Of a stretch of 52,132 bases of DNA, positions 14,231-35,195 are shown piece after piece. The position numbers and the translations under genes were made by a program. The stretch's first letter is position 1. Each line of letters begins with the position of its first letter. This DNA comes from Proteromonas lacertae (taxonomy: Eukaryota): positions 558,001 through 610,132 of the forward strand of contig NGBS01000871.1 of assembly GCA_002245135.1 (NCBI GenBank). The letters are read 5' to 3'. The notes beneath the pieces are model-generated. The model saw nothing but the letters and a program-made list of their open reading frames with translations, had not been told where the DNA came from and ran no database searches.

Positions 14231-17200
14231 ATGAAATCAATTATTTTGAGTATACTAAGTAAAATATATTGTTAAAATAGTAATCATTGGAATATTGAGT
14301 GTATGGGCAGTTGATCTTAGAAGTTCAAGTATTTTTATCACTCGTAATTTTAATAGGAATACTACAGACAGGAAGTACAGTTCCAAGTGGAACAGTAATG
14401 AAATTTACAACAGATAAAACTGTAACCTATTTAGTAAGTGATGAAGTAGTAGTAGCTCAAATAGGAAATGATGCTAATAACTATCTAGTTTATCGAGTTA
14501 ATAGTCGAGATGCTGTTGATAAAAGTGATGTAAAGAAAGGTAGTTTATACAGTTTATCAATCGATAAAAGTGTAAGTGGAACATGTAGTGGTACAGCTGG
14601 TTCAGGAAGAGAAACAACCTGTGAAGTTGAAGCATCAATTCCAAGTCATTGTCCTGGTCAAGCTGGTGTAAAAACATGTATGATATAATGATATAATCAA
14701 TTATAATGAACTAGTAAAATCATTAACAATAATATATACCAAAGGATCAGAATCAGCTCCATCTGGAAGAAGAGGAAGATTATTAGCTGATACTATGACA
14801 ATAAAAGGTGTATATAATGATGATAGTGATATAAGTGTTGATGCAGATCCTTCAGTAATATCAGGTGAAGGTATAATAAATAAATAATAATATATAATAG
14901 AATTAAGCAATGCTGAAAAAGATTTACCAAAATATTTAGATGGTAGTTATTGTGATGGAGTTGCAAATGTAAAAGGAGAATTAGTTCCAAGTGGAACAGT
15001 AATAAAGTTTACAGTTGATAAAACTACAACCTATTTAGTAAGTGATGAAGTAATAGTAGCTCAAGTAGGCGATGCTAATAACTATCTAGTTTATGAAGCT
15101 GTAAAAGGAGAAGCAGTATCTGGTGATAAATCTAAAGGCAGTAAATACAGTTTGAATTTAAAAGTAGATAAAAGTGGAAAATGTAGTGGTACAGCTGGTT
15201 CAGGAAGAGAAACAACCTGTGAAGTTGAAGCATCAATTCCAAGTCATTGTCCTGGTCAAGCTGGTGTAAAAACATGTATGATATAATGATATACCAAAAG
15301 ATCAGAATCAGCTCCATCTGGAAGAAGAGAAAGATTATTAGCTGATACTGTGACAATTAAAGGTGTATATAATGATGATAGTGCTGTAGTTGTGGATGAA
15401 AATACTGCTATTGTTTTAAATAATGACACTAAACCTAGTATTTTGTGTTATGTTTATTGTCTATAGAAAAAGCAGAAGCTGAAGAAATGTTAAATAGTTA
15501 TAAAGATGGTGATTATTGTTATAGTGAAGAATTAACTACACCTGATTATGTATCTACGCCTGAGTTGACTACTCCTGATGTTAAACTTCCGTTAATATGT
15601 CCATATGAAAAAAATAATGTTAAGTTGATTGTTGATAAAGCTAACACCATTCGAACTATTTCTCCTAAATATCTAGATTATAAATATGAAAATTTAAAAT
15701 GCAATGATGGAAATGAAGGTATAAATTTAGTTAATAATGGCAATTTAACAGTAAATGCAAGTATGAAGATTGATTATAAGAATTGTAGAATAGAATGTAG
15801 TTATGGTGAAAGAAGTGGCTTTACAACAGTAACAATTGCAGTTGTAGAATATGAACCTTATATTAATAAATTTGCTTCAAAAGTTCCAGTTGTAGTTAAT
15901 TTTTCTCAAGAATTTCAAGCTAAAATTATTGTGAGTTATCCTATAATAAGTGATGTTAGTAATGATGACTTGGTTAATCAGAAAAATATAGTCAAAATGA
16001 ATGTTAGTTTAGATGATAGTTTTAGTAGTAAATTTAAGTTAGAAACAAAAGAAAAGGATCAAACTAATGCTACTATTTTTGAATGGAAAGATTTAATTAT
16101 TACCAACTCATCATATGAAGTTACTACTGGAACAACAGAAGTTATAACAAAGTTTATAAGTAATTATACTAATTTAGAAAGATCTTATAAAATTAATGTA
16201 TTTAATGGAGGAGATGGTATTAATATTTATTTATTTATTTACTATAAAAGGTTGTACTTATGGTTTTGATCCACAGGGATTGTGCTGTGAAAGAAAATAT
16301 GTTGGAGAATATTGCACTAAAGTTCAAGTTGCTTATTCATTTGTTGATAGTGGTAATGGTGGTGGTGGTAGTTTTTATAATTTTGCAAATTCTTTTGTTG
16401 AATCGATAAAAAATCTATTCACTGGAAGTTCATTTTGGGTTATTAACAAATCAAATGGTGATGATTATAGATATAAAAAAATCAGATTAATAATTAAGTA
16501 TATAGAGAATAGTAATAATACAGATGATGAAAATGTAATTCCAACATTAAGTAAGATAGAAAGTAGAGAATTAGATGAAGGTAATTCTATTTGGAATTCT
16601 TTAAAAGAAAATGAAGCTATTGATCCAATTGAATTTGCTAATACTGTATTGACAGTAATAGCTCCAAGTGATAGTTATGTAGAAAACACTGAAAATGTGA
16701 ATGCTGATGTAAATAATACAATTCAAGAATCAATAAAAGAAATACCATCTGAAGTACTTACAGGTGAATTAGGTGAAATAGTAAAATCATTTACTAAATC
16801 AGAAATATTTGTTGAAGCTATAAAGAATATTACATTAGCTGCTCAAGAACATGATGTAAAGAAAGATCCAAAAGAATACTTCACTCCTACAACACAACTT
16901 GGTGAAGAAGTTGATCACTCTCCATCAGAAAAGAAGCCTTGGGCAGAAGAGTATTGGTGGGTGATATTAATAATATGTGTAGGAGGTGTTTTATTAATTG
17001 GAATAATAATAGCAATAATAGTTGTTTCAACATCAAAATCTTCAACTAAATAGTCAAAGAAAGATTTAGAAAAGAGTGAAAAGATAATGGAAACAATAAT
17101 TCCAATCGAAAAGATGAGAGAAGAGAATGGTGTAACAGATGAAGATATATATAAACCATTTAGTTATGAAGTAATAATGGAAGGATATTTATTGAAAGAA

Positions 17201-17816: not shown

Positions 17817-20800
17817 TTATTCAATATTTTTAAATTCAATAGATAATTCTTTCTTTTCTTTTTCTGAAATTCCATCTAATATTATTCTATGAATTGTTGA
17901 GAATGTTTGTAAGAATGATATTAATTGTGATTTATATATACTCTCATTCACTATTATTGATAATTCTTCTAAACATTCAAACAGTCCTTTGCTTTGTTTC
18001 ATTAATTCTAATTCTATACCATTCAATTCATTTCCTGAAAGGTTTATTTTATCTAATTGTTTACAACATCCATTCCAATATCTATACATATTATATTATT
18101 ATCATCAAATACTTGATAGATTCAATGAGTATGAACCATTATCAATCGAAACATACTCTACAAATTTATTTAATACTTACATATCAATTCTACACCTTCA
18201 TTTCCAATTGGATTGTTACATATTGAAATATATCTAACATCTTCTGCAAAACAATCTGTTAATTCTTTTAATCCTTTGTAAGTGATTCTATTATTGGATA
18301 AATCAAGTTTCCAATAATCAATTTGTTTTATCAAGCATATATGAGAATCTCTTATATTTAATTCTATTTCATTACAAATATATATTACATACTCGAAAAA
18401 TCATATATTTTATCAAAATGACTATTCCGCCGTTGAATGTTCTTTACTATACAATAATCCAAATAAAATTCCAATTCTTCATTTGTCCATGATGAACATT
18501 TCATTTCTACAAATGGATTAGATCCACAATAATGACCATCAGATAATTCTATACAAATTGATTTTAATCCACACATTCTGATGCTATTACTTTTTAGATT
18601 GATTTGATTAGTTTCATTTAAACAACAAATATAATCTGCTAATAAGAATATACTCTCATCATCTATTGATATATTCCTCATTTTTATTATTTCATCAAAT
18701 TCTAATAATTTAATATTATCAAGTAGTAATTTAAATCCAATATTACCAATTGGATTATCTATTGAACAAATCATTAAAAACTAAATTTAATATATATACT
18801 ATCAACTATTAGCTTATATATTTTATAATTCTCTTTCACATAATTCATCAAATATTCTATTCCTGATGAATCTATATTATTACCACTTATATCAAGTCTT
18901 TTGATCTTCTTATGAATATTCTTTAAACCATCTAATAAATACTTTAATCCAACTGATGATAATCCCATTTCTATTTTATATTATATAACAATGAATATAC
19001 TTGAACAATTTAATACATCACCATCATTAATCAATAAATCTAAATGAGGAGATAATATTAACATTCCTGAATCTCCTATTTCATTTCCATAAAATTGAAC
19101 TTCTTTGAGATTTGGTAATGAAGATAAATTGTCTATAAGTGTTTCTACACTTTTATATGTTAGTTTATTATCTAAATAATAGAAAAAAATCAAATTATAC
19201 CACTCAAATCCAACTTTCTTATTTTTCTCAATTCATTTAATCTTAATAACATGAACAGGTTGAAAAGTTCATCATTAATTGCTAATCTACATAGATATAA
19301 TCTATTATTATCATTTTTGATGTATTTCAATATGTCTGGAATATTTTTATCTATTAATAATTCCTTACTTCTATTAAGATCAAATAACACTTTTGATATA
19401 GGAAATTTGGAGAATAAGGCTTTTAATCCTCTTGAATGAATATTATTCCTTGTAATATTAATTTTCTTAATATTTGGATATTTGTATAATTCTGATGATA
19501 ATAATATCATCGATTCATCGTTCAAATACATTTCTCTTAGATACAATTCATTCCTTTTGTTGATTAATAGATGTAAATATGGAAGTAATAGTTCAAAGCT
19601 TTTTGGCCCAATTGCATTACCTAATTTAAAGAATATATAAAATAAAATAAATACAATGAAGATCTACATATTTCAATTTCATGAATATAATTGATTTCTT
19701 AAATGAACTAATGAAACTAAAGCGAAGATTACTATTTGATAAATCCATTTCCTGTAAATTTGATATCTGCCTAAAATATGATCAGAATAATGATTGATGA
19801 TGAAATGGAATATTTATATCACAATGGATTCTATTAGGATTAATTAACTTCAGTATTTTGAAGAAATAACACATTCCTTCTTTACATAAACAAATACATC
19901 TTGAATTAATTTCAATTAATTTGTCATCATTACAGAAAAAATTAACATAAAACATCATTTCATCTAAATAGCTTCCTTCATTCTCTATACATTGGTGTAC
20001 TATATGATATTTTAGATTATCTGTTATTGAATAATCTTCTTTATACAATCTCATTGTCAATAATATTAATAATACTCTTTCACTATATTTGTTATTATAT
20101 AATTCTATCATTCTATCTCGAATTTCTATTCAATAATATTAAATATTATATATATATATACCTTCTCTTTTATTAAATCCAAGATAATAATAAACACTTT
20201 TATGAAAGGGGAATAATTGTAGTGAAATGTCATTATTATATAATATATCCTTTCTTTCTTCACATATCATTAAATAATTCTCTCCATCTCTTAATATTTC
20301 ACTCATTTTTATCATCTCTTTTCTCAACTCTTTTATACTCAATCTATCTTCACTCTTCACTTTTAACATCCCTTCTATCATTTCTTTCATCATCTTATCA
20401 CACTTTATATCATAAATGTATATACATCTCAGAATATTATTCATTGTTTTGATGATATTATTATCTTCATTAAATGGTAATTTCTTACAAATCATTTCAT
20501 ATAATATACAACCAATTGACCAAATCACACTTCTTTCATTAAATTCTAATCCATTCAACTCTTCTGGGGGTTTAAAGCAAATATCATACACTCTCATATT
20601 CTGTTCTTTTCTTAATATATTTAAACCTATATCACATATTTTTATATCACCATTTTCTTCATATATCACATTACTACTCTTCAAATTACCTATTTCTACG
20701 TTATATTCACGTAATATTATTAAAACATTACATAGTGAACTAATCATACTACACATGTCACTACTACAATACGAATCACTATTAATCATTTCTTCTAAAT

Positions 20801-21119
20801 CTCTATGGTAATAATCTCTTTCCAATATCATTTTATAATTATCAGATATTTGTATTTTTGATGAATAAATGAATGATAAACAGCAATCTAACAACAGATG
20901 GTTATTTTCATAGAATTTTAATATCATCTCTTCTGAAACTGTAGCTATATTTAACATTTTTAGTACTTTCATATTATTCTGATGTTGTATTGCTACAGTC
21001 ACTTCTATACCTCCATTTACATCTTTTCTCTATTAGATCGAAATATATTGATATACTGCACCGTTAGAAGGTAATATGGAGAATGTTTGACTCTCTAAGA
21101 CTGAATTAATGCTAAACAT
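17817..21119 (-). pseudogene. pseudokinase + LRR protein, copy 2, with in-frame TGA at 19782-19784
   Basis: Same architecture as copy 1 (GNLKSSN, KICDIG, PPEEL, WSIGCILYEM, then LRR exons). The frame reads HQSLF*SYFRQISNLQEMDLS where paralogs read SLFGSLFSQL or PLFALYLSQL. Confidence 0.7.
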
Positions 21120-21303
21120 TTTTTTAACATCTAAAATGACAATTTCAAGCCAAGCTAATTCTTTTTAATTTTCTTAGTTTTTATTTAGAAGTATTTACTT
21201 TTTGAAGTTAAAATTGCATAAATTGTTATTCGAATGATAGTTAACATTCGATAAAAACAATTTCATTAAAATATGCCATTAACAAAGAATTTCATTAATT
21301 ATT

Positions 21304-23049: not shown

Positions 23050-25179
23050 TTAAAGAAATAATAATATTATCAATAAAATACATACAAGTGTAATTAATAA
23101 ATAATTCATCTTCTCTATTGAATTATAAGATGATATTAAAACTTCATAATTATTCTCTAACAATTTCATTTTTTCATTCATGTTATTATATGTCTTATTT
23201 AACTCATTTATTATCACATAATCTAATGACATTGATTGAGAATGAATATCAAAATATTCATTATTTCTTATTAGTGAAGATTGATTTATACCGAAGAAAT
23301 AATATCTTTCTGATAATGAAGAAGAAGAGGATGATGATGAAGTTGAAGGATTTGATTCATTATTACACTTCTATTTATGATTATATATATTATAATATCT
23401 TTTATTTATACTAATGATTTTGTTTTGTTTAATAAATTTTCATATTTTTCATTTGTTTCTTTGAATTTCTCTTGATAATGAAAGTTGATTTCATCTAAAT
23501 ACTTGTTCAACAATGAAACATCAATTTCAAGTGATTTTACTATATATATATATATACATAAATACAATAATATAATAATATACTTTTATCTGTTAATATT
23601 TTGAATATACTATTTGCACTATCAGGAGTTACAGATCGAGATGATGGTATGGATGATGATAAAATAGGTGTTGTTGGTGTAGCAGTATTTGTAGCACCAG
23701 TTGTAGTAGCAGTTGCTGGAGTTGTTGGATTAATGTTTGTATTTATTGATGATGTTGGATATACAGTGTTATTTGGATCTGTTTCATTTATTGCTTTGTT
23801 TGAACTATTTGTTTCACTTTTTACTTTTTCAGTTGGTTTCTTAATGGTTGAGTTATTATCTTTGATATTTTCATTTATTGCTTTTTTCTCATTTTCTTTG
23901 TTATTAGTAATTGTTGTTGTTGTTGTTGTTGTAGTTTTCATATTATTATTGCTTATATTTGTTGAAATTGTTTTATTTGTTGATTGTTTTTGTTTTTGTT
24001 GAGATGGTTCAGTTGTTGGTTCTGATGTTATATTCATTCTATTATTGTCATCATTTACTGTTTCTTCTTTTGTATTATTATTATTATTATTATTACAACT
24101 TTCTGTTATTTTTACTTCTTCTTTTTCTTCTTGCTTACTATCTTCTCTTTTATTTACATCAATCTCTTTGTTTTCTTTATTCTCATTCTCATTATTATTT
24201 GTTATTGATTCATCTTTAATTGTTTCATCTGTTGTAGTTGTTGTTTGTTTTGGTACATTCTGGATATTTTGAATTGCTTCTTTCACTTCCAAATTACTCT
24301 GGACCAAATCATCTTTCAATGTCTCCATCACTGTCTTACCATAAACACTTATTGAAGTTATTGTCCATACATCTTCTTTACCATAATGATTAATAAATCG
24401 AAACTTTAGAAATCTTGCCCAATCAGGCGATTGTAATCGAAATATTTGAGGACCATTTCTTTCTTCAGCTTCAAATTCTCCTAATAACAACCATTCAGCT
24501 GTTGGATATTCACTTGAACCCATTACTCGGAAACTACGATAAGTGCTGGAATATCTTTCATAATTCGCTAATACTACTGTATCAACTAGAATCTATTCAA
24601 TAAATAAATAAATAAATAATAATATACACTTTCAGATAAACCAATAACTATAAATATTTTATCATTTGTATCACTCTGACAGTATTTATCTTTAGCAGAA
24701 TTTAACACTTTTTTACAGTCTTTAGCTTCTTCATTACAACTCAATACAACTGCTCCTGCATCCACACTAGCGTAATTGAATCGATCAGAGAGTGGTATTT
24801 CAGCTAAGTTTTGTTGTTCTTTGATTGTTTTCTCATTTGTGTCGTTTATAGATGGTTCTGAGATGATTCGAGGTAACATTTCTTCTTTAAATTCTTTTAA
24901 ACTCTTTATACTCCCATCTTCATTCATTGAAAAGGAAAAATTGGAATTAGACGATGATATATTAGTTATATTATTCTCACAAAGCTCTACATCATACAAA
25001 TATGAAACATTTGTGTAATTTTGGAATTTGTAAATATCTAAATACGATAATTCTGTGTATGGACAAGTCAAATTGCCTTCACCAAAAGATATGTTATTCT
25101 GAGAAGTATTATTCTCAGCACTTAATACGTTCGACATAAAAATGACTTGAACAATAAAAATACACAATTTCAATTTCAT
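23050..25179 (-). CDS. mid-SUN domain protein (Slp1/SUCO-like)
   Basis: Signal peptide, then SUN domain RFNYASVDAGAVVL...KDKY...LANYERYSS...YPTAEWLLLGEF...RFLKFRFINHYGKE...SISVYGKT. Coiled coil SIFKILTDK|KSLEID..LLNKYLDE and a C-terminal TM helix follow. Confidence 0.85.
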
Positions 25180-25267
25180 GGAATAAATATTGCTAGAGAA
25201 AAACTAAGAAAATTAAAAAGAAAAAGCTTGGCTTGAAATTTAATTTTAGAAATCTATCTATTTTTGA

Positions 25268-26462
25268 ATGGAGGAATTAGCTGATCTTGAAATTGCAGGC
25301 GAAATCAGAAGAACTACAACATGCACTGTTCATGAGGGCAAATTTAGAGGTGAAAAGGTTATGATAAAAGTATATCCTATTTCTGGAATGGATGAATCAG
25401 AAAAAAATAAAATACAAGCTGAAGTATAGATTTATATATTATAATTTTAGTTGCATGCTTTAGAAACAATTCATAATCGTTATTTAGTTCATTATATCAC
25501 CAGTTTTCTATATGAAGAAAAATTCTATGTAGTTTTAGAATACTTTTATGGAAATACACTAGAAGAGTATATCAGAAGGTTGAGAATTGATGGAAGATTA
25601 TTAACAGAGCAAGTATATAAACAAATAATAATATATTTATAGACAGTATTACGTGCATTAGTGAATTTATTGTACGGATTGAACTATCTCCACAGTTTAC
25701 ATTTAATTCACCGAGATATTGCTCCAAATAACATAATGATCAGTTTAGGAGGTGAATTCGTATTAAGTGACTTAGGATTCATTCGAAAAATAGATGAAGA
25801 ATTTAACACTAAATTAACAGTAATTGGAAATCCACTTTACCGAGCACCTGAAATTTTAAAACAACATTATGATTATAAAGTAGATATATGGAGTCTAGGT
25901 TGTGTTATCTATGAAATGTGTACTTTAGAACCACCATTTAGAACAAATGATTTATTTATATTTCAAAACGATTCAAATATTTCAATATCTCGAATTCCAA
26001 CCTATTACAGTGATGAATTTAATGAATTAATAGAAAATATGTTACAATTTGATTCTACAAAGAGATATAATACAACGCAATTATTGAATTCAAATATCGT
26101 AAAGACATTTATAATGGATCAAGGGATAAATGGATTACCTTTTTCATTAGATGCATTAATATATGATCCAATGAAGGAAGGGACTGAGTTTAATGAACCA
26201 TATGATCCAACTAATGCAATAATTACAGCGAAGAAGATAATACCGAAGGTGGATTATGATGAGGAAGAAAATGATGATGAAGATGATGTTGGTGAAGTAA
26301 TTACGAAGAAAGAAGAACCAAAGAAACCTAAAAAACCAAAGAAAGATAATAATATTCCAAAAGTTCCAGTGAGGAAAGAATCGGATGGAGTTGTTTTATT
26401 ACCAACATCAACATCAACATCATCAACAACAACAGAAAAAGTAAAAGTTATAGCTAAAGAAG

Positions 26463-27252: not shown

Positions 27253-27438
27253 ATAGTATAATTGAATAATGACGTGATAATTATCAATTATTTTAATATT
27301 GTTGTAAATGAAATTGATGTATATCTCTCTTCAATTTAAAATGAATAAAATAAGTTTGATGATGGTTTGATATGTAATAAAAAATAGAGTGGTTTTTATT
27401 TTTAATTTTCATTTTTCTTTTCTTTTTGATTTAAATCA

Positions 27439-28870
27439 ATGGGTATAATTACTCTTTTTATTTCTTAGGAAGAGATTCACACAGTAGACACCATAGCTCA
27501 CGAAGAAGGAGCCGAAGTCGTGATAAAGAGAGAAAAAGAAGTCATAGTAGAGAAAAAAAGCATTCTAAATCTCGAAGTCGTGATAAACATCGTCATAGAA
27601 GTCGTAGTGACAGACACAAGTATCATGAGAGAAGAATTGAAAGAGATGAAAAAGAAAAGTATATTATTGATTATATTATATAATAAATAGACGAGAACAA
27701 AGACCAGCAACAACCTCATCATCAAAACCAGATGTAGAAGAGCCAAAGAAGAAAAGAAGATCTTTATTTGATGTTCGTCCTTCTGGTGTGACTGATGAAG
27801 TGATTGGTTTAGATTCTGATAATGCATTATTATTATCAATGTCAATTCCAACAGTCCAAACTGGTCCTCAAACTCGACATGCTCGACGATTATATGTAGG
27901 AGGAATAGGAGAATGTAGTGGTAAAGAAGTAGAAGCATTTTTCAATCAAAATATACGAAAAGCTTGTAATGTCGAGTTAAAACAAAATCCAGTGATTAAT
28001 GTCTTTTTATGTCAAGATAAGCGATATGCATTTGTTGAATTAAATAGTGTTGATATAACCAGTCAATGTCTAGGAATGGATGGAATTATGTTTAATGGCC
28101 AACCATTGAAAGTTCGTAGAGCAAATGATTTTAATCCAGCTCAATTACCACCACCTGATCCAAAAGCTCCTAAATTAGATTTACGTAAACTTGGTTTAAC
28201 GAATGTAGGTCCTCAAGTCGATGAACAAACTCCAAAATTTCTCTTTAGTGGTTTTAAAAGTGATAGTGCAAGTGAAAGTATATTTATTGAGTTATTTAAG
28301 CCATTCGGTAAATTATTAAAACTACAAATAATGCGAGATCCAGTTAGTTTGAGATGTCGAGGTTATGGATTTGGTGAATATGAAGATAATGTAATTTGTG
28401 ATTTGGCTTGTAACAATTTGAATGGATTAGATGTTGGTGAATTTATATTAAATGTAGAACCAGCTAATATGGATGCTTGTCAGAAAATAGTTCCACCAGA
28501 TCGAGCTGGTGATTTGGATGATTTATTAAAGGAATTAACAGAGAATTATGCAATTCCTAAGCAACCCAGTAGAATAATGGAAATAAAGAATATGATCAGT
28601 GGTGAAGATTTAGAAGATAGTGAAAAAATGCTAAAAATTCGTGAAGATTTGAATGGTGAATGTGTTCGATATGGAAGTGTAATGAGTATAGAAATTCCTA
28701 AGGAATTTAAAGATAAAATGAACAGTGGTAGAGTATTTGTAGAATTCGAGTTTATTGAAGAATGTAAAGCAGCAGTAACTCAATTATTTGGTCGAAAATA
28801 TGGTGATCGAATAATATTTACAGCATATTTTGATGAAGTTCGGTTTTTAAATGGAGATTTTTTATATTGA
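27439..28870 (+). CDS. U2AF2: splicing factor U2AF large subunit (U2AF65)
   Basis: Spliced N-terminal RS domain (MGRDSHSRHHSSRRRSRSRD), RRSLFDVRP, TRHARRLYVGG, YAFVEL, LKVRRANDFNP, RGYGFGEY, and a C-terminal UHM (ECVRYGSVMSIEIP...GRVFVEF...GRKY). Confidence 0.93.
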
Positions 28871-29034
28871 GTTTAATTTTTTTTAAATGAATTTTATTTG
28901 TTTGTTTAATGAGAAAGTAAAATATTTTGAATTGATAGTTGATTTATAGTTTATCATCTTCATAGAAATAAATAAAAAATGTAAATATGTTCGTTACAAA
29001 TATTTGAAAAATAAAAATTTTGTCAAATGAGTTA

Positions 29035-31607
29035 ATGAACTCAATATTTCCCAGTAATTGTGAAGTATATTTGATATTTATTTTTTATAGATACAAAATC
29101 GAGTAGAAAAGAGTGTATTTGAAGTAGAATTATTTGTGAAACACCAAAATGATATTAAAGTAGTAAAAATGTTAAAGATTGATGTAGTGAAGGAAAAGAA
29201 TAAATTGAAATTTTATGAAAATATATTTTTATTGAAAGAGAGTGTATTTCTTCTCTTGTGTATGGTTGTGAAATGTTTGAGTTGAATAATGGTGGTGAAT
29301 ACATGTTAATATCACAAGAATACTACAATATAGACTTAGAAGAGATAATTCAAAGAAAATGTATGTTAATTAGTGATATATGTAATATGATATGTTCATT
29401 GTGTGATGTGTTAATAGAATTGAGTGAAACTGATATAATGATAAGTAATTTGAAGAGTAGTAATGTGATATATGGAAAGAATGAAAGAGTAAAGTTGTGC
29501 GATTTGTTCTTAGATAATTTAAGAAAAGAAGAAGATTTAAGAATATATGATATCTGCTTCAAAAGCCCTGAAGAGTTGAATGGATATGAGTGTAATGATA
29601 GAAGTGTGATATGGTCAATTGGTTGTATATTATATGAGATGATAAACAAGAAATTACCATTTAATGAAGATAATAATATGAATGAAACAAAAGAAAATAT
29701 TCTGAGATGTAAATACAGTTTAGATGTAGAATTTGATAAAACAATGAAAGAGATAATAGAAAAAATGTTGAAAGTGAAGAGTGAAGATAGATTGAGTTTA
29801 AAAGAGTTGAAAAAAACAATGATTAAAACGAGTGAAATAATGAAAGATGAAGGTGATAATATGATGATATATAAAGAAAGAAAAGAAATATTATTCAATA
29901 TGATGATATTATTATCATCAGAATTATATAAATATCCAAATCTTAAGAAGATAATTATTTATGGAAATAAAAATATTCATTCAAGAGGATTAAAAGTATT
30001 CTCCAAATTTCCTATTTCAAAAGTGTTATTTGATTTTAAGAGTAAAGAGTTGCTGATTGATAAAGACATTCCAGAATTAGTAAAATACACCAATTTCACT
30101 GTAATTGATAATCCTAAATTAAATCTGAGTAATTTAGAAATTGATGATGATTATTTCAAATCATTCATTTCTTTAAGATCAAATGAATTAGGAGAAATAG
30201 AAGGATTGGATTTAAGTAGTATATTTTGATATTTTTATATTATTTAGATAATAAACTAGCACACAAAAGTATAGAAACACTTATAGACAATTTATCTTCA
30301 TTATCAAATCTCAATAAACTTCAAGTTTATGGAAATGAAATAGGAGATGAAGGAATGAAGATATTATCTCCACATATTCATTTATTGAATAGTGAAAATG
30401 TAATTAATTGTTCAAGTATAATTATAATTATTATGTTTTGAATAGAGATGGGATTATCTTCGACAGGATTGAAGTATTTATTAGATGGTTTAAAGAATAT
30501 TCATAAGAAGATCAAAAGACTTGATATAAGTGGTAATAATATAGATTCATCAGGAATAGAATATTTGATGAAATATATTAAAGAAAATGGTAATATCGAA
30601 ACTATATCTATTCAAGGTATAGATAGTTAATGTTTTTATTTTTTGAATAGATAATCCTATTGGTAATAATGGATTTAAACTATTATCAAACAATTTAGAT
30701 ATGATAAAATATGATGGCAAAATTGATTTGAGTAGAATTTCAATAGATGATGAGAGTGTGATATTATTAACGAACAAAATCAGCTCAATAGGAAGATGTA
30801 ATACAATAAATCTAAGTGGAAATGATATTAGAATAGAAGGATTAAAATTAATTTGTTCAAAATCAAATTGGAATTATCCATTTATAATGATGAGAAATTC
30901 CTCCTGGACAGATGAAGAATTGGAATATTATTTGAATTATTGCGTTGAAAAGAATAGATGTTCTTATAAAAGCCATGATTTTTCTAGTATAGATTATGAA
31001 TTAATAATGAAATAGATATGAATATCAATGATTGTCACATATCATTAATTAAACAGATCAATTATAAAACACTTTATTTATCACATAACATAATCAGTGC
31101 AAAGGGATTGAAAGAATTAACAGATTCATTATCACAGCATCCACAATATATATCAATATTCAATAATCCAATTGGAGATGAAGGAATAGAGATAATATGT
31201 AAATATATAAATAGATTTATTGACTGTAAAAATGTAGGATGTGGGATTTTATTATCATTGTGTCTGTCAAGTATTTATATTAATATTATTTAATCTTATT
31301 TTGAATAGATATAGATATGAGTGAAAAGGGATTAAGAACGTTGATAGAAAAATTAAAAGAGGGTTGTTTAGAGAAGATAGATATATCAGGAAATGAATTA
31401 AATGAAAGAGAATTGAGATTAATGATAGAAAACAAAGAAGTATTTGAATGTTTAGAAGATTTGTTTATAACAATGAAAAAAGATATAGATATATCAGAAT
31501 TGAAATCCTTTTTAAAGACATTTTCATCAATAAAAAGTATAAAAATAGATGGAATTTCAGAAGAAGAAAAGAAAGGGCTATCAGAAGAATTCTTCAATAT
31601 AAAATAA
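29035..31607 (+). pseudogene. pseudokinase + LRR protein, copy 3 (2-nt frameshift near 29236-29242 and internal deletion near 29900)
   Basis: ATG at 29035 and intron 29065-29090. An extra AG in GAGAGAG shifts the frame relative to paralogs. The kinase end ERKEILFN is fused directly to MILLSSELYKYPN, lacking the linker domain found in copies 1, 2 and 4. Confidence 0.7.
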
Positions 31608-34215
31608 TCTATTATTAACATATGCTATATTATAATTATCTTTGTATGTGAAGAAAAAATGAAAAGCTTTCTTTTTAAATTATTGGGGGAAACAATTCAA
31701 CCAAAATTTCGATATTTCTTTCTAAAACTCAAAATCGTCTCAAATGAATAATGATGAAGTATATAGGTAAATTATAATTCATAGAATATAAAAAGAGTGA
31801 AATATAATCACAGTGAAGTAGATTTGAGAATGGAAGAAGAAAGAGATAAATTAATAGAATGCTACAATAAGAAAACCAACGAAAATGTGTTATCAACGTT
31901 GTTAAAAATGAAATTATCCAAGGGAGATAATTCAATAAAGAATAATTTGAAATTCAAAATCTCTCACAGATGTGAAGAAGGGAATGAACGTTGTTTGGAT
32001 GAAATGATATTTGATATTGATACTGATAATGATGATAAAAATATTTTTGTAGTTGATTATTATTGTGTATGTTTTTGTGAAGAAGGGATGAGTTATTTCT
32101 TCAGAGTATTTAAACTAATCAATCCAACAAAACTTAGATTCAGTATAATTTATGTCATTTTCAATTGTGTAGATAATATTTCTATTCAAATCCAATATCA
32201 ATCATTATTTGGATCTTTATTCTCTCAATTATCAAGTCTAGAAGAGATAGAATTACATTCAATTTGTCTCGCTTCTGATTTTGTTGAATCATTTGTTAAA
32301 TCAATTCCGTTGATGAAATTGAAACATATACATCTTTCAAGTATATACTAATATTATGTTATATAAAATAATATTGATATAGCAAATCCAATTGGTTCAA
32401 AAGGCTTCAAATTATTACTTCCATATTTACATTTATTAATCAACAAAGATGATGAATTGGATCTTTGGGCAATGAATTTAAGTGATGAATCAATGATATT
32501 ATTATCATCAGAATTATACAAATATCCAAATGTTAAGAAAATTAATATTACAACGAATAATATTCATTCAAGAGGATTAAAAGCCTTATTCTCCAAGTTT
32601 CCTATATCAAAAGTGTTATTTGATCTTAATAGAAGTAAGGAATTATTAATAGATAAAGACATTCCAGATATATTGAAATACATCAAATATTTGGATTTGA
32701 GTGATTTAGAAATTGATGATGATTATTTCAAATCATTCATTTCTTTAAGATCAAATGAATTAGGAGAAATAGAAGGATTGGATTTAAGTAGTATATTTTG
32801 ATATTTTTATATTATTTAGATAATAAACTAGCACACAAAAGTATAGAAACACTTATAGACAATTTATCTTCATTATCAAATCTCAATAAACTTCAAGTTT
32901 ATGGAAATGAAATAGGAGATGAAGGAATGAAGATATTATCTCCACATATTCATTTATTGAATAGTGAAAATGTAATTAATTGTTCAAGTATAATTATAAT
33001 TATTATGTTTTGAATAGAGATGGGATTATCTTCGACAGGATTGAAGTATTTATTAGATGGTTTAAAGAATATTCATAAGAAGATCAAAAGACTTGATATA
33101 AGTGGTAATAATATAGATTCATCAGGAATAGAATATTTGATGAAATATATTAAAGAAAATGGTAATATCGAAACTATATCTATTCAAGGTATAGATAGTT
33201 AATGTTTTTATTTTTTGAATAGATAATCCTATTGGTAATAATGGATTTAAACTATTATCAAACAATTTAGATATGATAAAATATGATGGCAAAATTGATT
33301 TGAGTAGAATTTCAATAGATGATGAGAGTGTGATATTATTAACGAACAAAATCAGCTCAATAGGAAGATGTAATACAATAAATCTAAGTGGAAATGATAT
33401 TAGAATAGAAGGATTAAAATTAATTTGTTCAAAATCAAATTGGAATTATCCATTTATAATGATGAGAAATTCCTCCTGGACAGATGAAGAATTGGAATAT
33501 TATTTGAATTATTGCGTTGAAAAGAATAGATGTTCTTATAAAAGCCATGATTTTTCTAGTATAGATTATGAATTAATAATGAAATAGATATGAATATCAA
33601 TGATTGTCACATATCATTAATTAAACAGATCAATTATAAAACACTTTATTTATCACATAACATAATCAGTGCAAAGGGATTGAAAGAATTAACAGATTCA
33701 TTATCACAGCATCCACAATATATATCAATATTCAATAATCCAATTGGAGATGAAGGAATAGAGATAATATGTAAATATATAAATAGATTTATTGACTGTA
33801 AAAATGTAGGATGTGGGATTTTATTATCATTGTGTCTGTCAAGTATTTATATTAATATTATTTAATCTTATTTTGAATAGATATAGATATGAGTGAAAAG
33901 GGATTAAGAACGTTGATAGAAAAATTAAAAGAGGGTTGTTTAGAGAAGATAGATATATCAGGAAATGAATTAAATGAAAGAGAATTGAGATTAATGATAG
34001 AAAACAAAGAAGTATTTGAATGTTTAGAAGATTTGTTTATAACAATGAAAAAAGATATAGATATATCAGAATTGAAATCCTTTTTAAAGACATTTTCATC
34101 AATAAAAAGTATAAAAATAGATGGAATTTCAGAAGAAGAAAAGAAAGGGCTATCAGAAGAATTCTTCAATATAAAATAATCTATTATTAACATATGCTAT
34201 ATTATAATTATCTTT
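30132..34215 (+). repeat. near-identical direct duplication of about 1.5 kb (30132-31643 and 32704-34215; period 2572)
   Basis: All ORF translations are identical at an offset of 2572. Introns and 3' flank also match on reading. Confidence 0.95.
31744..34179 (+). CDS. kinase-less LRR protein, copy 4 (linker domain + LRRs, apparently intact)
   Basis: ATG at 31744 and 29-nt intron 31767-31795, then the linker domain (LIECYNKK..LDEMIF..CFCEEGMSYFFRVFKLINP) and phase-1 spliced LRR exons ending EEFFNIK*. Confidence 0.7.
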
Positions 34216-34284
34216 CTTTCTAAAACAAAAATGAAAAGCTTGAATATCTAGTTTGACATATAGTTTTTAAATTTGATTTATTGA

Positions 34285-35195
34285 ATGCTAGATAGAATAT
34301 TTGAAGACACAGATTGGAAAGAATGGTTAATTAATGTGGTAATATACCAAATAGCAAAACGGTTTGACTATATAGAACCAAATTTAAGATTTTTTCGAGA
34401 AGGTGATTTATCAATTTCATATCCTGTTAAACCTGATACATTCACGTATACTAACTGTATTTTATGGAATATAGTACAAATACGGTGAAATTACTTGCCT
34501 TATATATTCCCTTTATACTAATCCCATTCATAATAATCTATCTCCAAAATAAAGGATTTAGATTACCTACCTTTCAAAGAATAAATCTAGCCTTAGTTGA
34601 ATGTTGTTATTTTAATACATTCTTAATTGTAATATTCAAAACGATGAATGGTAGAATGAGACCTAACTTTTATTCACTATGTGGTTATGAATATAATAAT
34701 TCTACTCACTCATATGGAATAGCAGGAAAAATAGGAGATATAGTTAATTGTAAAGGAGAAGTATGAAATAATATTATGTAAAATATAGATAAGTGATATT
34801 TGGGAATCTAGGCGTAGTTTTCCATCTGGTCATTCCGCCTATGCTACATCAGGGTTGGTTTTTATTTCATTATTTATATATATGATTCTTAAACAAATTA
34901 AACCCAAATATTTTATTGTATTTATGTTATCTATCTATGAATATTATGTATTTAGTTATTGAAGATATTATTATCATCATTACCATCGTTTTTAGCTCTT
35001 TATATTGCTTCAACTAGAACTGTATTTATGATTTGTAGTATATATTATATTATATAGCAAGATAATTGGCACCACTTTTCAGATATTCTAGGTGGATGTA
35101 TTTTAGGTAGTTTAACAGCTTTCATTGTGTTCGAATTAAGAATAAACAACAACTACATGACAAATGTGAAATATAACTTACCCTATTTTATATAA
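34285..35195 (+). CDS. PAP2-family lipid phosphate phosphatase
   Basis: The three PAP2 motifs are present after splicing: KTMNGRMRP, SFPSGH and STRT|QDNWHHFSDILGG. Multiple TM helices. Confidence 0.9.

What the first reader, a model, noticed from the sequence alone, without database searches (positions are those of the whole stretch)
30219..31308. LRR exons are symmetric phase-1 cassettes of whole repeat units (168, 171, 336, 255 nt)
Seen: introns 30219-30247, 30416-30445, 30617-30650, 30987-31015 and 31271-31308 are all phase 1 and fall at the same LRR position, just after LxLS. The exons encode 56, 57, 112 and 85 aa, equal to 2, 2, 4 and 3 repeats of about 28 aa. The other copies show the same pattern. 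Known: vertebrate NLRP genes have 171-nt modular LRR exons, and brown-algal LRR genes shuffle repeat exons. Inference: any exon can be skipped or swapped in frame, giving combinatorial diversification.
Basis: partly seen in the sequence, partly recalled or inferred. Interest (0 to 1): 0.75.

Follow-up and report, generated by a model that had tools for sequence, protein, structure and literature searches.

The report
Old repeat-aligned introns, no shuffling seen
A small-intron protist, likely a Blastocystis relative, has four copies of a gene for a likely dead kinase joined to leucine-rich repeats; its predicted introns all fall at one spot in the repeat, a known layout that likely records old repeat duplication, while the copies differ by patches and deletions that end inside exons, not by swapped exons.

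Summary
Observation confirmed, interpretation mostly not. The five GT-AG introns and the 168/171/336/255-nt exons are exact. All introns are phase 1 and split codon 8 of the LRR core, far beyond chance. The gene (copy C) is one of four paralogs (A-D) of a pseudokinase plus ribonuclease-inhibitor-type LRR family. The 'other copies' are not independent: D equals C over 1,512 bp, and A and B inherit the same introns. Every copy keeps the same exon order; 24 of 25 exons best match the same-rank exon; no stray LRR exons exist. The copies are mosaic, but through two gene-conversion tracts, a block duplication and two in-frame deletions; 0 of 8 mapped ends lie in introns. A relative carries an extra repeat inside an exon. 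Introns of 29-42 nt disfavour skipping. Skipping itself is untested: no RNA run was listed. The more interesting feature is the hypervariable predicted binding face (34-36% identity against 64-71% elsewhere), in a family where B and C look broken. Exon-modular LRRs are well known.

The parts
29035..31607 (+). Copy C (the finding): pseudokinase fused directly to LRRs; linker and first repeats deleted; frame break near 29230-29240
30219..30247 (+). intron, 29 nt, phase 1, LRR codon 8
   Evidence: same site read through in P0146, P0159, P0179
30248..30415 (+). exon L2, 168 nt, 2 repeats
30416..30445 (+). intron, 30 nt, phase 1, LRR codon 8
   Evidence: same site in P0159 cluster
30446..30616 (+). 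exon L3, 171 nt, 2 repeats; holds the 99-bp tract identical to copy B
30617..30650 (+). intron, 34 nt, phase 1, LRR codon 8
30651..30986 (+). exon L4, 336 nt, 4 repeats (28, 28, 26, 30 aa)
30987..31015 (+). intron, 29 nt, phase 1, LRR codon 8
31016..31270 (+). exon L5, 255 nt, 3 irregular repeats (23, 26, 36 aa)
31271..31308 (+). intron, 38 nt, phase 1, LRR codon 8
30132..31643 (+). 1,512-bp block exactly identical to 32704-34215; starts inside an exon, ends in the 3' flank
31744..34179 (+). Copy D: intact frame, kinase domain missing (likely deleted), linker plus about 21 LRRs, 7 phase-1 introns in the repeat region
32497..32687 (+). gene-conversion tract shared with copy B (19506-19316), 185 of 191 identical, wholly inside exon L1
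33046..33144 (+). gene-conversion tract shared with copy B (18942-18844), 99 of 99 identical, wholly inside exon L3
4799..8142 (-). Copy A: full pseudokinase-linker-LRR; two frame-ambiguous spots (near 8050; intron ending 6838)
17817..21119 (-). Copy B: full architecture but probable pseudogene (TGA at 19784-19782, frame breaks near 18172 and in the last exon); lacks the intron that A and D have near D 32143; has its own intron at 20161-20126

Best explanation
The predicted introns sit at one position of the repeat, likely because the LRR array grew long ago by copying a repeat block together with its intron and later lost some introns; today the four copies keep one exon order and differ by conversion-like patches and in-frame deletions that end inside exons. 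Shown: intron phase and position, colinear exons, two near-identical B-D tracts, an exact C-D block, loss of linker in C, absence of kinase in D, broken frames in B and C, and fast change at the exposed strand residues. Inferred: constitutive splicing by intron definition; birth-and-death evolution; and a protein that works as an intracellular binding or sensing module, in which the variable concave LRR face would bind a partner and the catalytically dead kinase would act as scaffold or switch.
For: Six introns at codon 8, phase 1. Exons L1 and L4 both begin at that junction and are the closest different-rank pair (41% over 71 aa, E 4e-11), as an old exon-bounded duplication predicts. One intron is absent in B but present in A and D, so introns are gained or lost between copies. 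24 of 25 exon queries best match the same-rank exon; the 25th is an 8-residue stub with no hit. Conversion tracts: permutation p = 0.0002 each, synonymous distance 0.054 inside against 0.446 outside. 0 of 8 ends in introns, nearest 26 nt from an edge. The 11-member P0159 cluster has one extra 28-aa repeat inside exon L1 and the same two introns. Exposed strand positions: identity 0.34-0.36, dN/dS about 0.8-1.2; other non-core positions: 0.64-0.71 and about 0.3-0.4; invariant 17 of 74 against 116 of 210, Fisher p 1.6e-6. Kinase fold by Pfam (E 2e-20 to 8e-22), but the catalytic-loop Asp is replaced by Asn and no GxGxxG is found in A, B or C, whereas the window's Wee1-like control has both.
Against: Only three distinct LRR sequences are compared. 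0 of 8 ends in introns is also what random placement gives (p 0.43, introns are 10% of the region), and two ends nearly coincide, so it only argues against intron-focused swapping. dN/dS near 1 can be relaxed constraint, and B is a probable pseudogene. The exact C-D block and the frame breaks may be assembly or polishing errors. No ligand, expression or function is shown.
Confidence: 0.68

Rival explanations
1. Combinatorial diversity generator: symmetric exons are skipped at the RNA level or swapped between copies at introns, giving many LRR surfaces.
For: All intact internal LRR exons are 3n and phase 1-1. Human NLRP3 and brown-algal ROCO genes do this (PMC6642158 passages; PMC11378527 abstract and section 15). 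Exon-wise closest pairs vary.
Against: Same exon order in 4 of 4 copies; no orphan LRR exon in the window (best outside hit E 0.03); introns too short to hold exons; 0 of 8 ends intronic; skipped exons usually have long flanking introns (PMC6142364). In Ectocarpus, modular type II LRR exons and LRR-kinase loci show no shuffling, so modularity alone does not imply it (PMC3341825 passages).
Confidence: 0.1
2. Decaying duplicates: the family is largely non-functional debris near a chromosome end, and variation at exposed residues reflects relaxed selection, not ligand diversification.
For: B has a stop and two frame breaks, C a frame break and a large deletion, D lacks the kinase, A has two ambiguous spots. 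Telomeric arrays lie 15-18 kb from D. dN/dS at exposed sites does not clearly exceed 1.
Against: Overall dN/dS of about 0.4-0.46 shows purifying selection; indels in the LRR exons of A, C and D keep the frame; related proteins recur almost unchanged in clusters of 10 and 11 members.
Confidence: 0.15
3. The shared position arose by repeated independent intron insertion at a favoured sequence in each repeat, not by copying an intron-bearing block.
For: Only 6 of about 21 repeats carry the intron; B has a private intron.
Against: The exon ends are mostly ..TCAA..TCTA or ..AGTA and not one shared AG|G-type site (that consensus is recalled). Copy B's private intron lies outside the repeats. L1 and L4 resemble each other from the junction onward.
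Confidence: 0.07

Closest known systems
Vertebrate NLRP, NOD/NLRC and RNH1 genes with exon-modular RI-type LRRs (Hoss et al. 2019, PMC6642158; passages read)
   Same: RI-type 28-29-aa repeats; frame-preserving exons; border at one fixed position of the repeat; two exons of 168-171 nt with two repeats each.
   Different: Exons hold 2-5 repeats of irregular length (168-435 nt), not a strict 171 or 84 nt; the N-terminus is a pseudokinase, not NACHT; introns are 29-42 nt; skipping not shown. From memory, not checked: the vertebrate junction is phase 2 and earlier in the strand, which would make this layout independent.
Brown-algal LRR-ROCO genes with shuffling type I exons (Zambounis et al. 2012, PMC3341825, passages; Teng et al. 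2024, PMC11378527, abstract and section 15)
   Same: Repeat-aligned symmetric exons; clustered paralogs; pseudogenes; recombination between loci.
   Different: There one 72-nt exon encodes one 24-aa LRR, introns are phase 2, spare exons lie in introns and on the other strand, and recent duplicates differ in exon number (13 against 17). None of this holds here.
Ectocarpus LRR-kinases and type II LRR exons (PMC3341825, passages)
   Same: Kinase plus LRR, with modular exons and no sign of shuffling: the closest functional parallel.
   Different: 24-aa repeats, one per exon; few tandem copies and no pseudogenes reported, unlike this family.
Plant NB-LRR resistance-gene clusters (variable beta-sheet face cited in PMC11378527 section 15; conversion and birth-and-death in such clusters recalled)
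   Same: Hypervariable exposed strand residues, sequence exchange between paralogs, broken copies.
   Different: No NB-ARC domain; different LRR class; no immune role shown.

Membership tests
Exon-modular RI-type LRR genes (NLRP/NOD layout) | RI-type repeats of about 28-29 aa | tested here: met
   Spacings mostly 28-29 aa; LRR_6 hits, all at or below the Pfam cut-off; best solved-structure sequence hits are a GALA-type LRR (E 1e-4) and ribonuclease inhibitor (E 1e-3); fold hits nearly all RI-class but none at E <= 0.001
Exon-modular RI-type LRR genes (NLRP/NOD layout) | Frame-preserving exons with borders at one repeat position | tested here: met
Exon-modular RI-type LRR genes (NLRP/NOD layout) | Uniform exons of one or two repeats (84 or 171 nt) | tested here: not met
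   168-435 nt, 2-5 repeats
NLR receptors | NACHT or NB-ARC NTPase domain before the LRRs | tested here: not met
   N-terminus is Pkinase; the only NACHT row is a 54-residue hit below cut-off (18.5 against 26.7 bits) on A's last exon
Exon-modular RI-type LRR genes (NLRP/NOD layout) | LRR exon skipping in transcripts | not testable with these tools
   no RNA holder was listed
Brown-algal shuffling LRR-ROCO genes | One 72-nt exon per 24-aa LRR | tested here: not met
Brown-algal shuffling LRR-ROCO genes | Spare LRR exons in introns or on the non-coding strand | tested here: not met
   introns of 29-42 nt; tblastn of 25 exons finds nothing better than E 0.03 outside the four loci; only this window could be searched
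Brown-algal shuffling LRR-ROCO genes | Exon number and order differ between recent duplicates | tested here: not met
   C and D identical over five introns; A and B colinear
Brown-algal shuffling LRR-ROCO genes | ROC-COR GTPase domain | tested here: not met
   no such Pfam hit among the 44 frames scanned, 18 of them from copies A-D
Pseudokinases | Kinase fold lacking the catalytic-loop Asp and the glycine-rich loop (motif definitions recalled) | tested here: met
   Pkinase hits; Asn in place of Asp and no GxGxxG in 3 of 3 kinase copies, with intact motifs in the Wee1-like control; alignment to STK11
Pseudokinases | No phosphotransfer activity in assay | not testable with these tools
   needs biochemistry

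The most novel reading that the evidence does not exclude
An undescribed family of intracellular pseudokinase-LRR sensors in a Blastocystis-like gut protist, evolving like plant resistance genes: a hypervariable binding face, patchwork gene conversion, and split kinase-LRR (C) and LRR-only (D) partners side by side. It would be a candidate non-self receptor system in a unicellular gut eukaryote.
Probability: 0.2. Interest if true: 0.65.

Novelty: new member of a known kind. Interest (0 to 1): 0.3.

Why it matters
Repeat-aligned symmetric exons are known from vertebrates and brown algae, so the layout alone is ordinary. This locus is a useful counter-example: the modules are there, but the visible diversification ignores them. 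If the family proves to be a variable sensor set, it would give a first handle on how such gut protists detect partners or enemies. The lineage assignment is an inference from one gene tree.

Tried and rejected
No whole genome is held, so the family census is limited to the window. RNA run search on 27400-34300: no RNA holder listed; this is no evidence either way, and no reads were laid. Search for longer relatives of A's kinase-linker: 18 weak generic kinase hits among 2,767 candidates, no kinase-LRR relative; weak evidence. JGI metagenome scan with alignment A1: 241 pattern matches, 0 confirmed. Profile search: 207 hits, 150 listed. I inspected 14 sequences and 10 clusters; four short unnamed clusters (P0146, P0159, P0162, P0179) are family members, and the long hits that carry names are fish and amphioxus proteins, mostly labelled NLRC-like or RI-like. 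Single-sequence fold of P0159 failed (pLDDT 32). Fold of exon L1 (pLDDT 77.5, last 50 residues poor) gave only weak RI-class matches. Atlas searches gave generic U2AF and kinase clusters. The Blastocystis downstream motif (recalled, then listed) is not enriched in the window: 9 found against 5.0 +/- 2.6 expected, 3 of 18 gene ends exact; not used. A-B and A-D pairs show no significant conversion tract (best p 0.054). My gene predictor proposed false introns around the breaks in B and C; rejected because those stretches align to coding sequence in the other copies. Literature: no paper held all terms for pseudokinase + LRR + protist + expansion + conversion, pseudokinase + LRR + Blastocystis, or LRR + intron position + exon duplication + intron loss; one search listed 17 papers, none on such a family by title; 'LRR' and 'leucine' occur 0 times in the main text of PMC5608401 and PMC12129017. 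Their supplements were not opened and may list such families.

Full report
Setting. The window is about 26% GC, ends in TTAGGG arrays and has standard stops. The 45 strong-consensus introns among 59 predicted in 15 other genes are 26-44 nt. Its aldolase has only unnamed close relatives (95% and 91%). In a 128-sequence tree these are sister, with support 0.946, to a clade holding Blastocystis sp. Blastoise. Low GC, canonical stops and variable intron lengths are reported for non-human Blastocystis (PMC12129017, passages). The organism is therefore likely a Blastocystis relative; this rests on one gene. No whole genome and no RNA run were available.

Observation. The five introns and four exons are exactly as stated and splice into one frame. 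All are phase 1 and split codon 8 of the LRR core. Copy D adds a sixth at that spot and a seventh about one codon off. Against a background of 27 phase-0, 22 phase-1 and 10 phase-2 predicted introns, five phase-1 introns have p about 0.007, and one shared nucleotide in an 84-nt unit has p about 2e-8. Repeat lengths are irregular, 23-30 aa with one of 36. Fragments from related unnamed organisms support two of the introns: P0146 and P0179 end in intron-like residues right after the same motif, and the 11-member P0159 cluster reads through a 10-codon intron there, continues into an L2-like exon (best hits are the L2 exons, E about 1e-9) and stops at the next intron site.

What the gene is. There are four paralogs: A (8142-4799, minus), B (21119-17817, minus), C (29035-31607) and D (31744-34179). 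The full form is kinase fold, linker, then about 21 LRRs. The kinase scores well in Pfam, but has Asn for the catalytic-loop Asp and no glycine-rich loop in A, B and C, while the window's Wee1-like kinase keeps both (motif definitions recalled). It is likely a pseudokinase. The repeats are RI-type on spacing and on weak sequence and fold matches. B carries a stop and two frame breaks. C has a frame break near 29230-29240 and lacks the linker and first repeats. D is intact but has no kinase; its 5' end still matches that of C and A (0 of 1,000 shuffles reach the score), so the kinase was likely deleted. A has two frame-ambiguous spots; under one reading its intron ending at 6838 is phase 2. Some breaks may be sequencing errors.

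Test of shuffling. All copies keep one exon order. Of 25 exon queries, 24 best match the same-rank exon of another copy (46-100% identity), and one is an 8-residue stub without a hit. No orphan LRR exon lies elsewhere in the window. C and D are identical over 1,512 bp, from inside exon L1 to the 3' flank, so they are one observation, not two. The copies are nonetheless mosaic. B and D share two tracts, 185 of 191 and 99 of 99 identical, each p = 0.0002 by permutation over 617 polymorphic sites. Synonymous distance is 0.054 inside against 0.446 outside, which points to gene conversion, not selection. Of 8 mapped ends (4 tract ends, 2 block ends, 2 deletion junctions) none is in an intron; the nearest is 26 nt from an edge. 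With introns at 10% of the region this is what random placement gives (p 0.43), and two ends nearly coincide, so the test only speaks against intron-focused swapping. In the P0159 cluster an extra 28-aa repeat sits inside exon L1: repeat number changes without regard to exon borders.

Test of skipping. Not possible without RNA. Across 65 eukaryotes, skipped exons are generally short with long flanking introns, with a few exceptions such as Bigelowiella natans (PMC6142364, passages). Exons of 168-435 nt between 29-42-nt introns fit constitutive splicing better. In Ectocarpus, modular type II exons and LRR-kinase loci show no shuffling (PMC3341825, passages), so modularity is a precondition, not evidence.

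Mechanism. Shown: one intron position, colinearity, exonic rearrangement ends. Inferred: an ancestral repeat block was copied with its intron. Exons L1 and L4 resemble each other from the junction onward (41% over 71 aa), and B lacks an intron that A and D have, so loss of introns can explain exons of three to five repeats. The family then spread by duplication, conversion and deletion. The exposed residues of the predicted beta-strands, chosen by motif in 15 repeats, are far more variable than the rest (identity 0.34-0.36 against 0.64-0.71; invariant 17 of 74 against 116 of 210; dN/dS about 0.8-1.2 against 0.3-0.4). That is the pattern of a variable binding face, but three sequences cannot separate positive from relaxed selection, and one of them is a probable pseudogene. 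I commit to a binding or sensing protein with a scaffold pseudokinase, diversified at the DNA level; its ligand is unknown.

Comparison and verdict. The layout works like that of vertebrate NLRP and NOD genes (PMC6642158, passages), but the gene is not an NLR and its exons are not uniform. It fails every tested feature of brown-algal shuffling ROCO genes. Earlier notes of this scan on other genomes reach similar verdicts for similar arrays; they are unchecked and not counted as support. My searches found no paper on a pseudokinase-LRR family in Blastocystis (supplements not opened). Verdict: real feature, new member of a known kind, combinatorial use unsupported; interest 0.3.

Noticed in passing
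window 48983-49606, 50278-51685, 51685-52132: Two TTAGGG arrays flank a hAT-like transposase (DUF659 and hAT dimerisation hits; arrays). No convincing terminal inverted repeats around it; a 17-nt inverted pair lies at 48324-48340 / 49698-49714, around the first array.
   Followed up: partly
window 41520-48044: Very large predicted gene (about 2,150 aa, 2 introns) with no Pfam hit and a 51-bp tandem array at 44361-45282. A Crinkler-like multidomain gene is suspected from memory only.
   Followed up: no
window 14231-16250: Predicted surface protein with an internal duplication (14379-14695 against 14983-15293, 85%) and seven consecutive predicted phase-1 introns: a second symmetric-exon array. 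It raises the phase-1 background used here, making that test conservative.
   Followed up: no
window 29895-29905 and 32485-32497: The junction of C's deletion and the 5' end of the first B-D conversion tract fall at almost the same point of exon L1: a hotspot or one shared event.
   Followed up: partly
window 32143-32172, 5993-5964, 6667-6629: Three LRR-region introns are multiples of three without an in-frame stop, so retention would insert 10-13 residues; the P0159 cluster has one too.
   Followed up: partly
window 8283-8354 and 13350-13422: tRNA-Pro just upstream of copy A, and tRNA-Glu.
   Followed up: no
window 21130-21216 and 25165-25250: An 87-nt inverted match (84%) between the region upstream of copy B and the region upstream of the kinase gene starting near 25268; possibly a shared promoter piece or a trace of the inversion that placed A and B on the other strand.
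   Followed up: no
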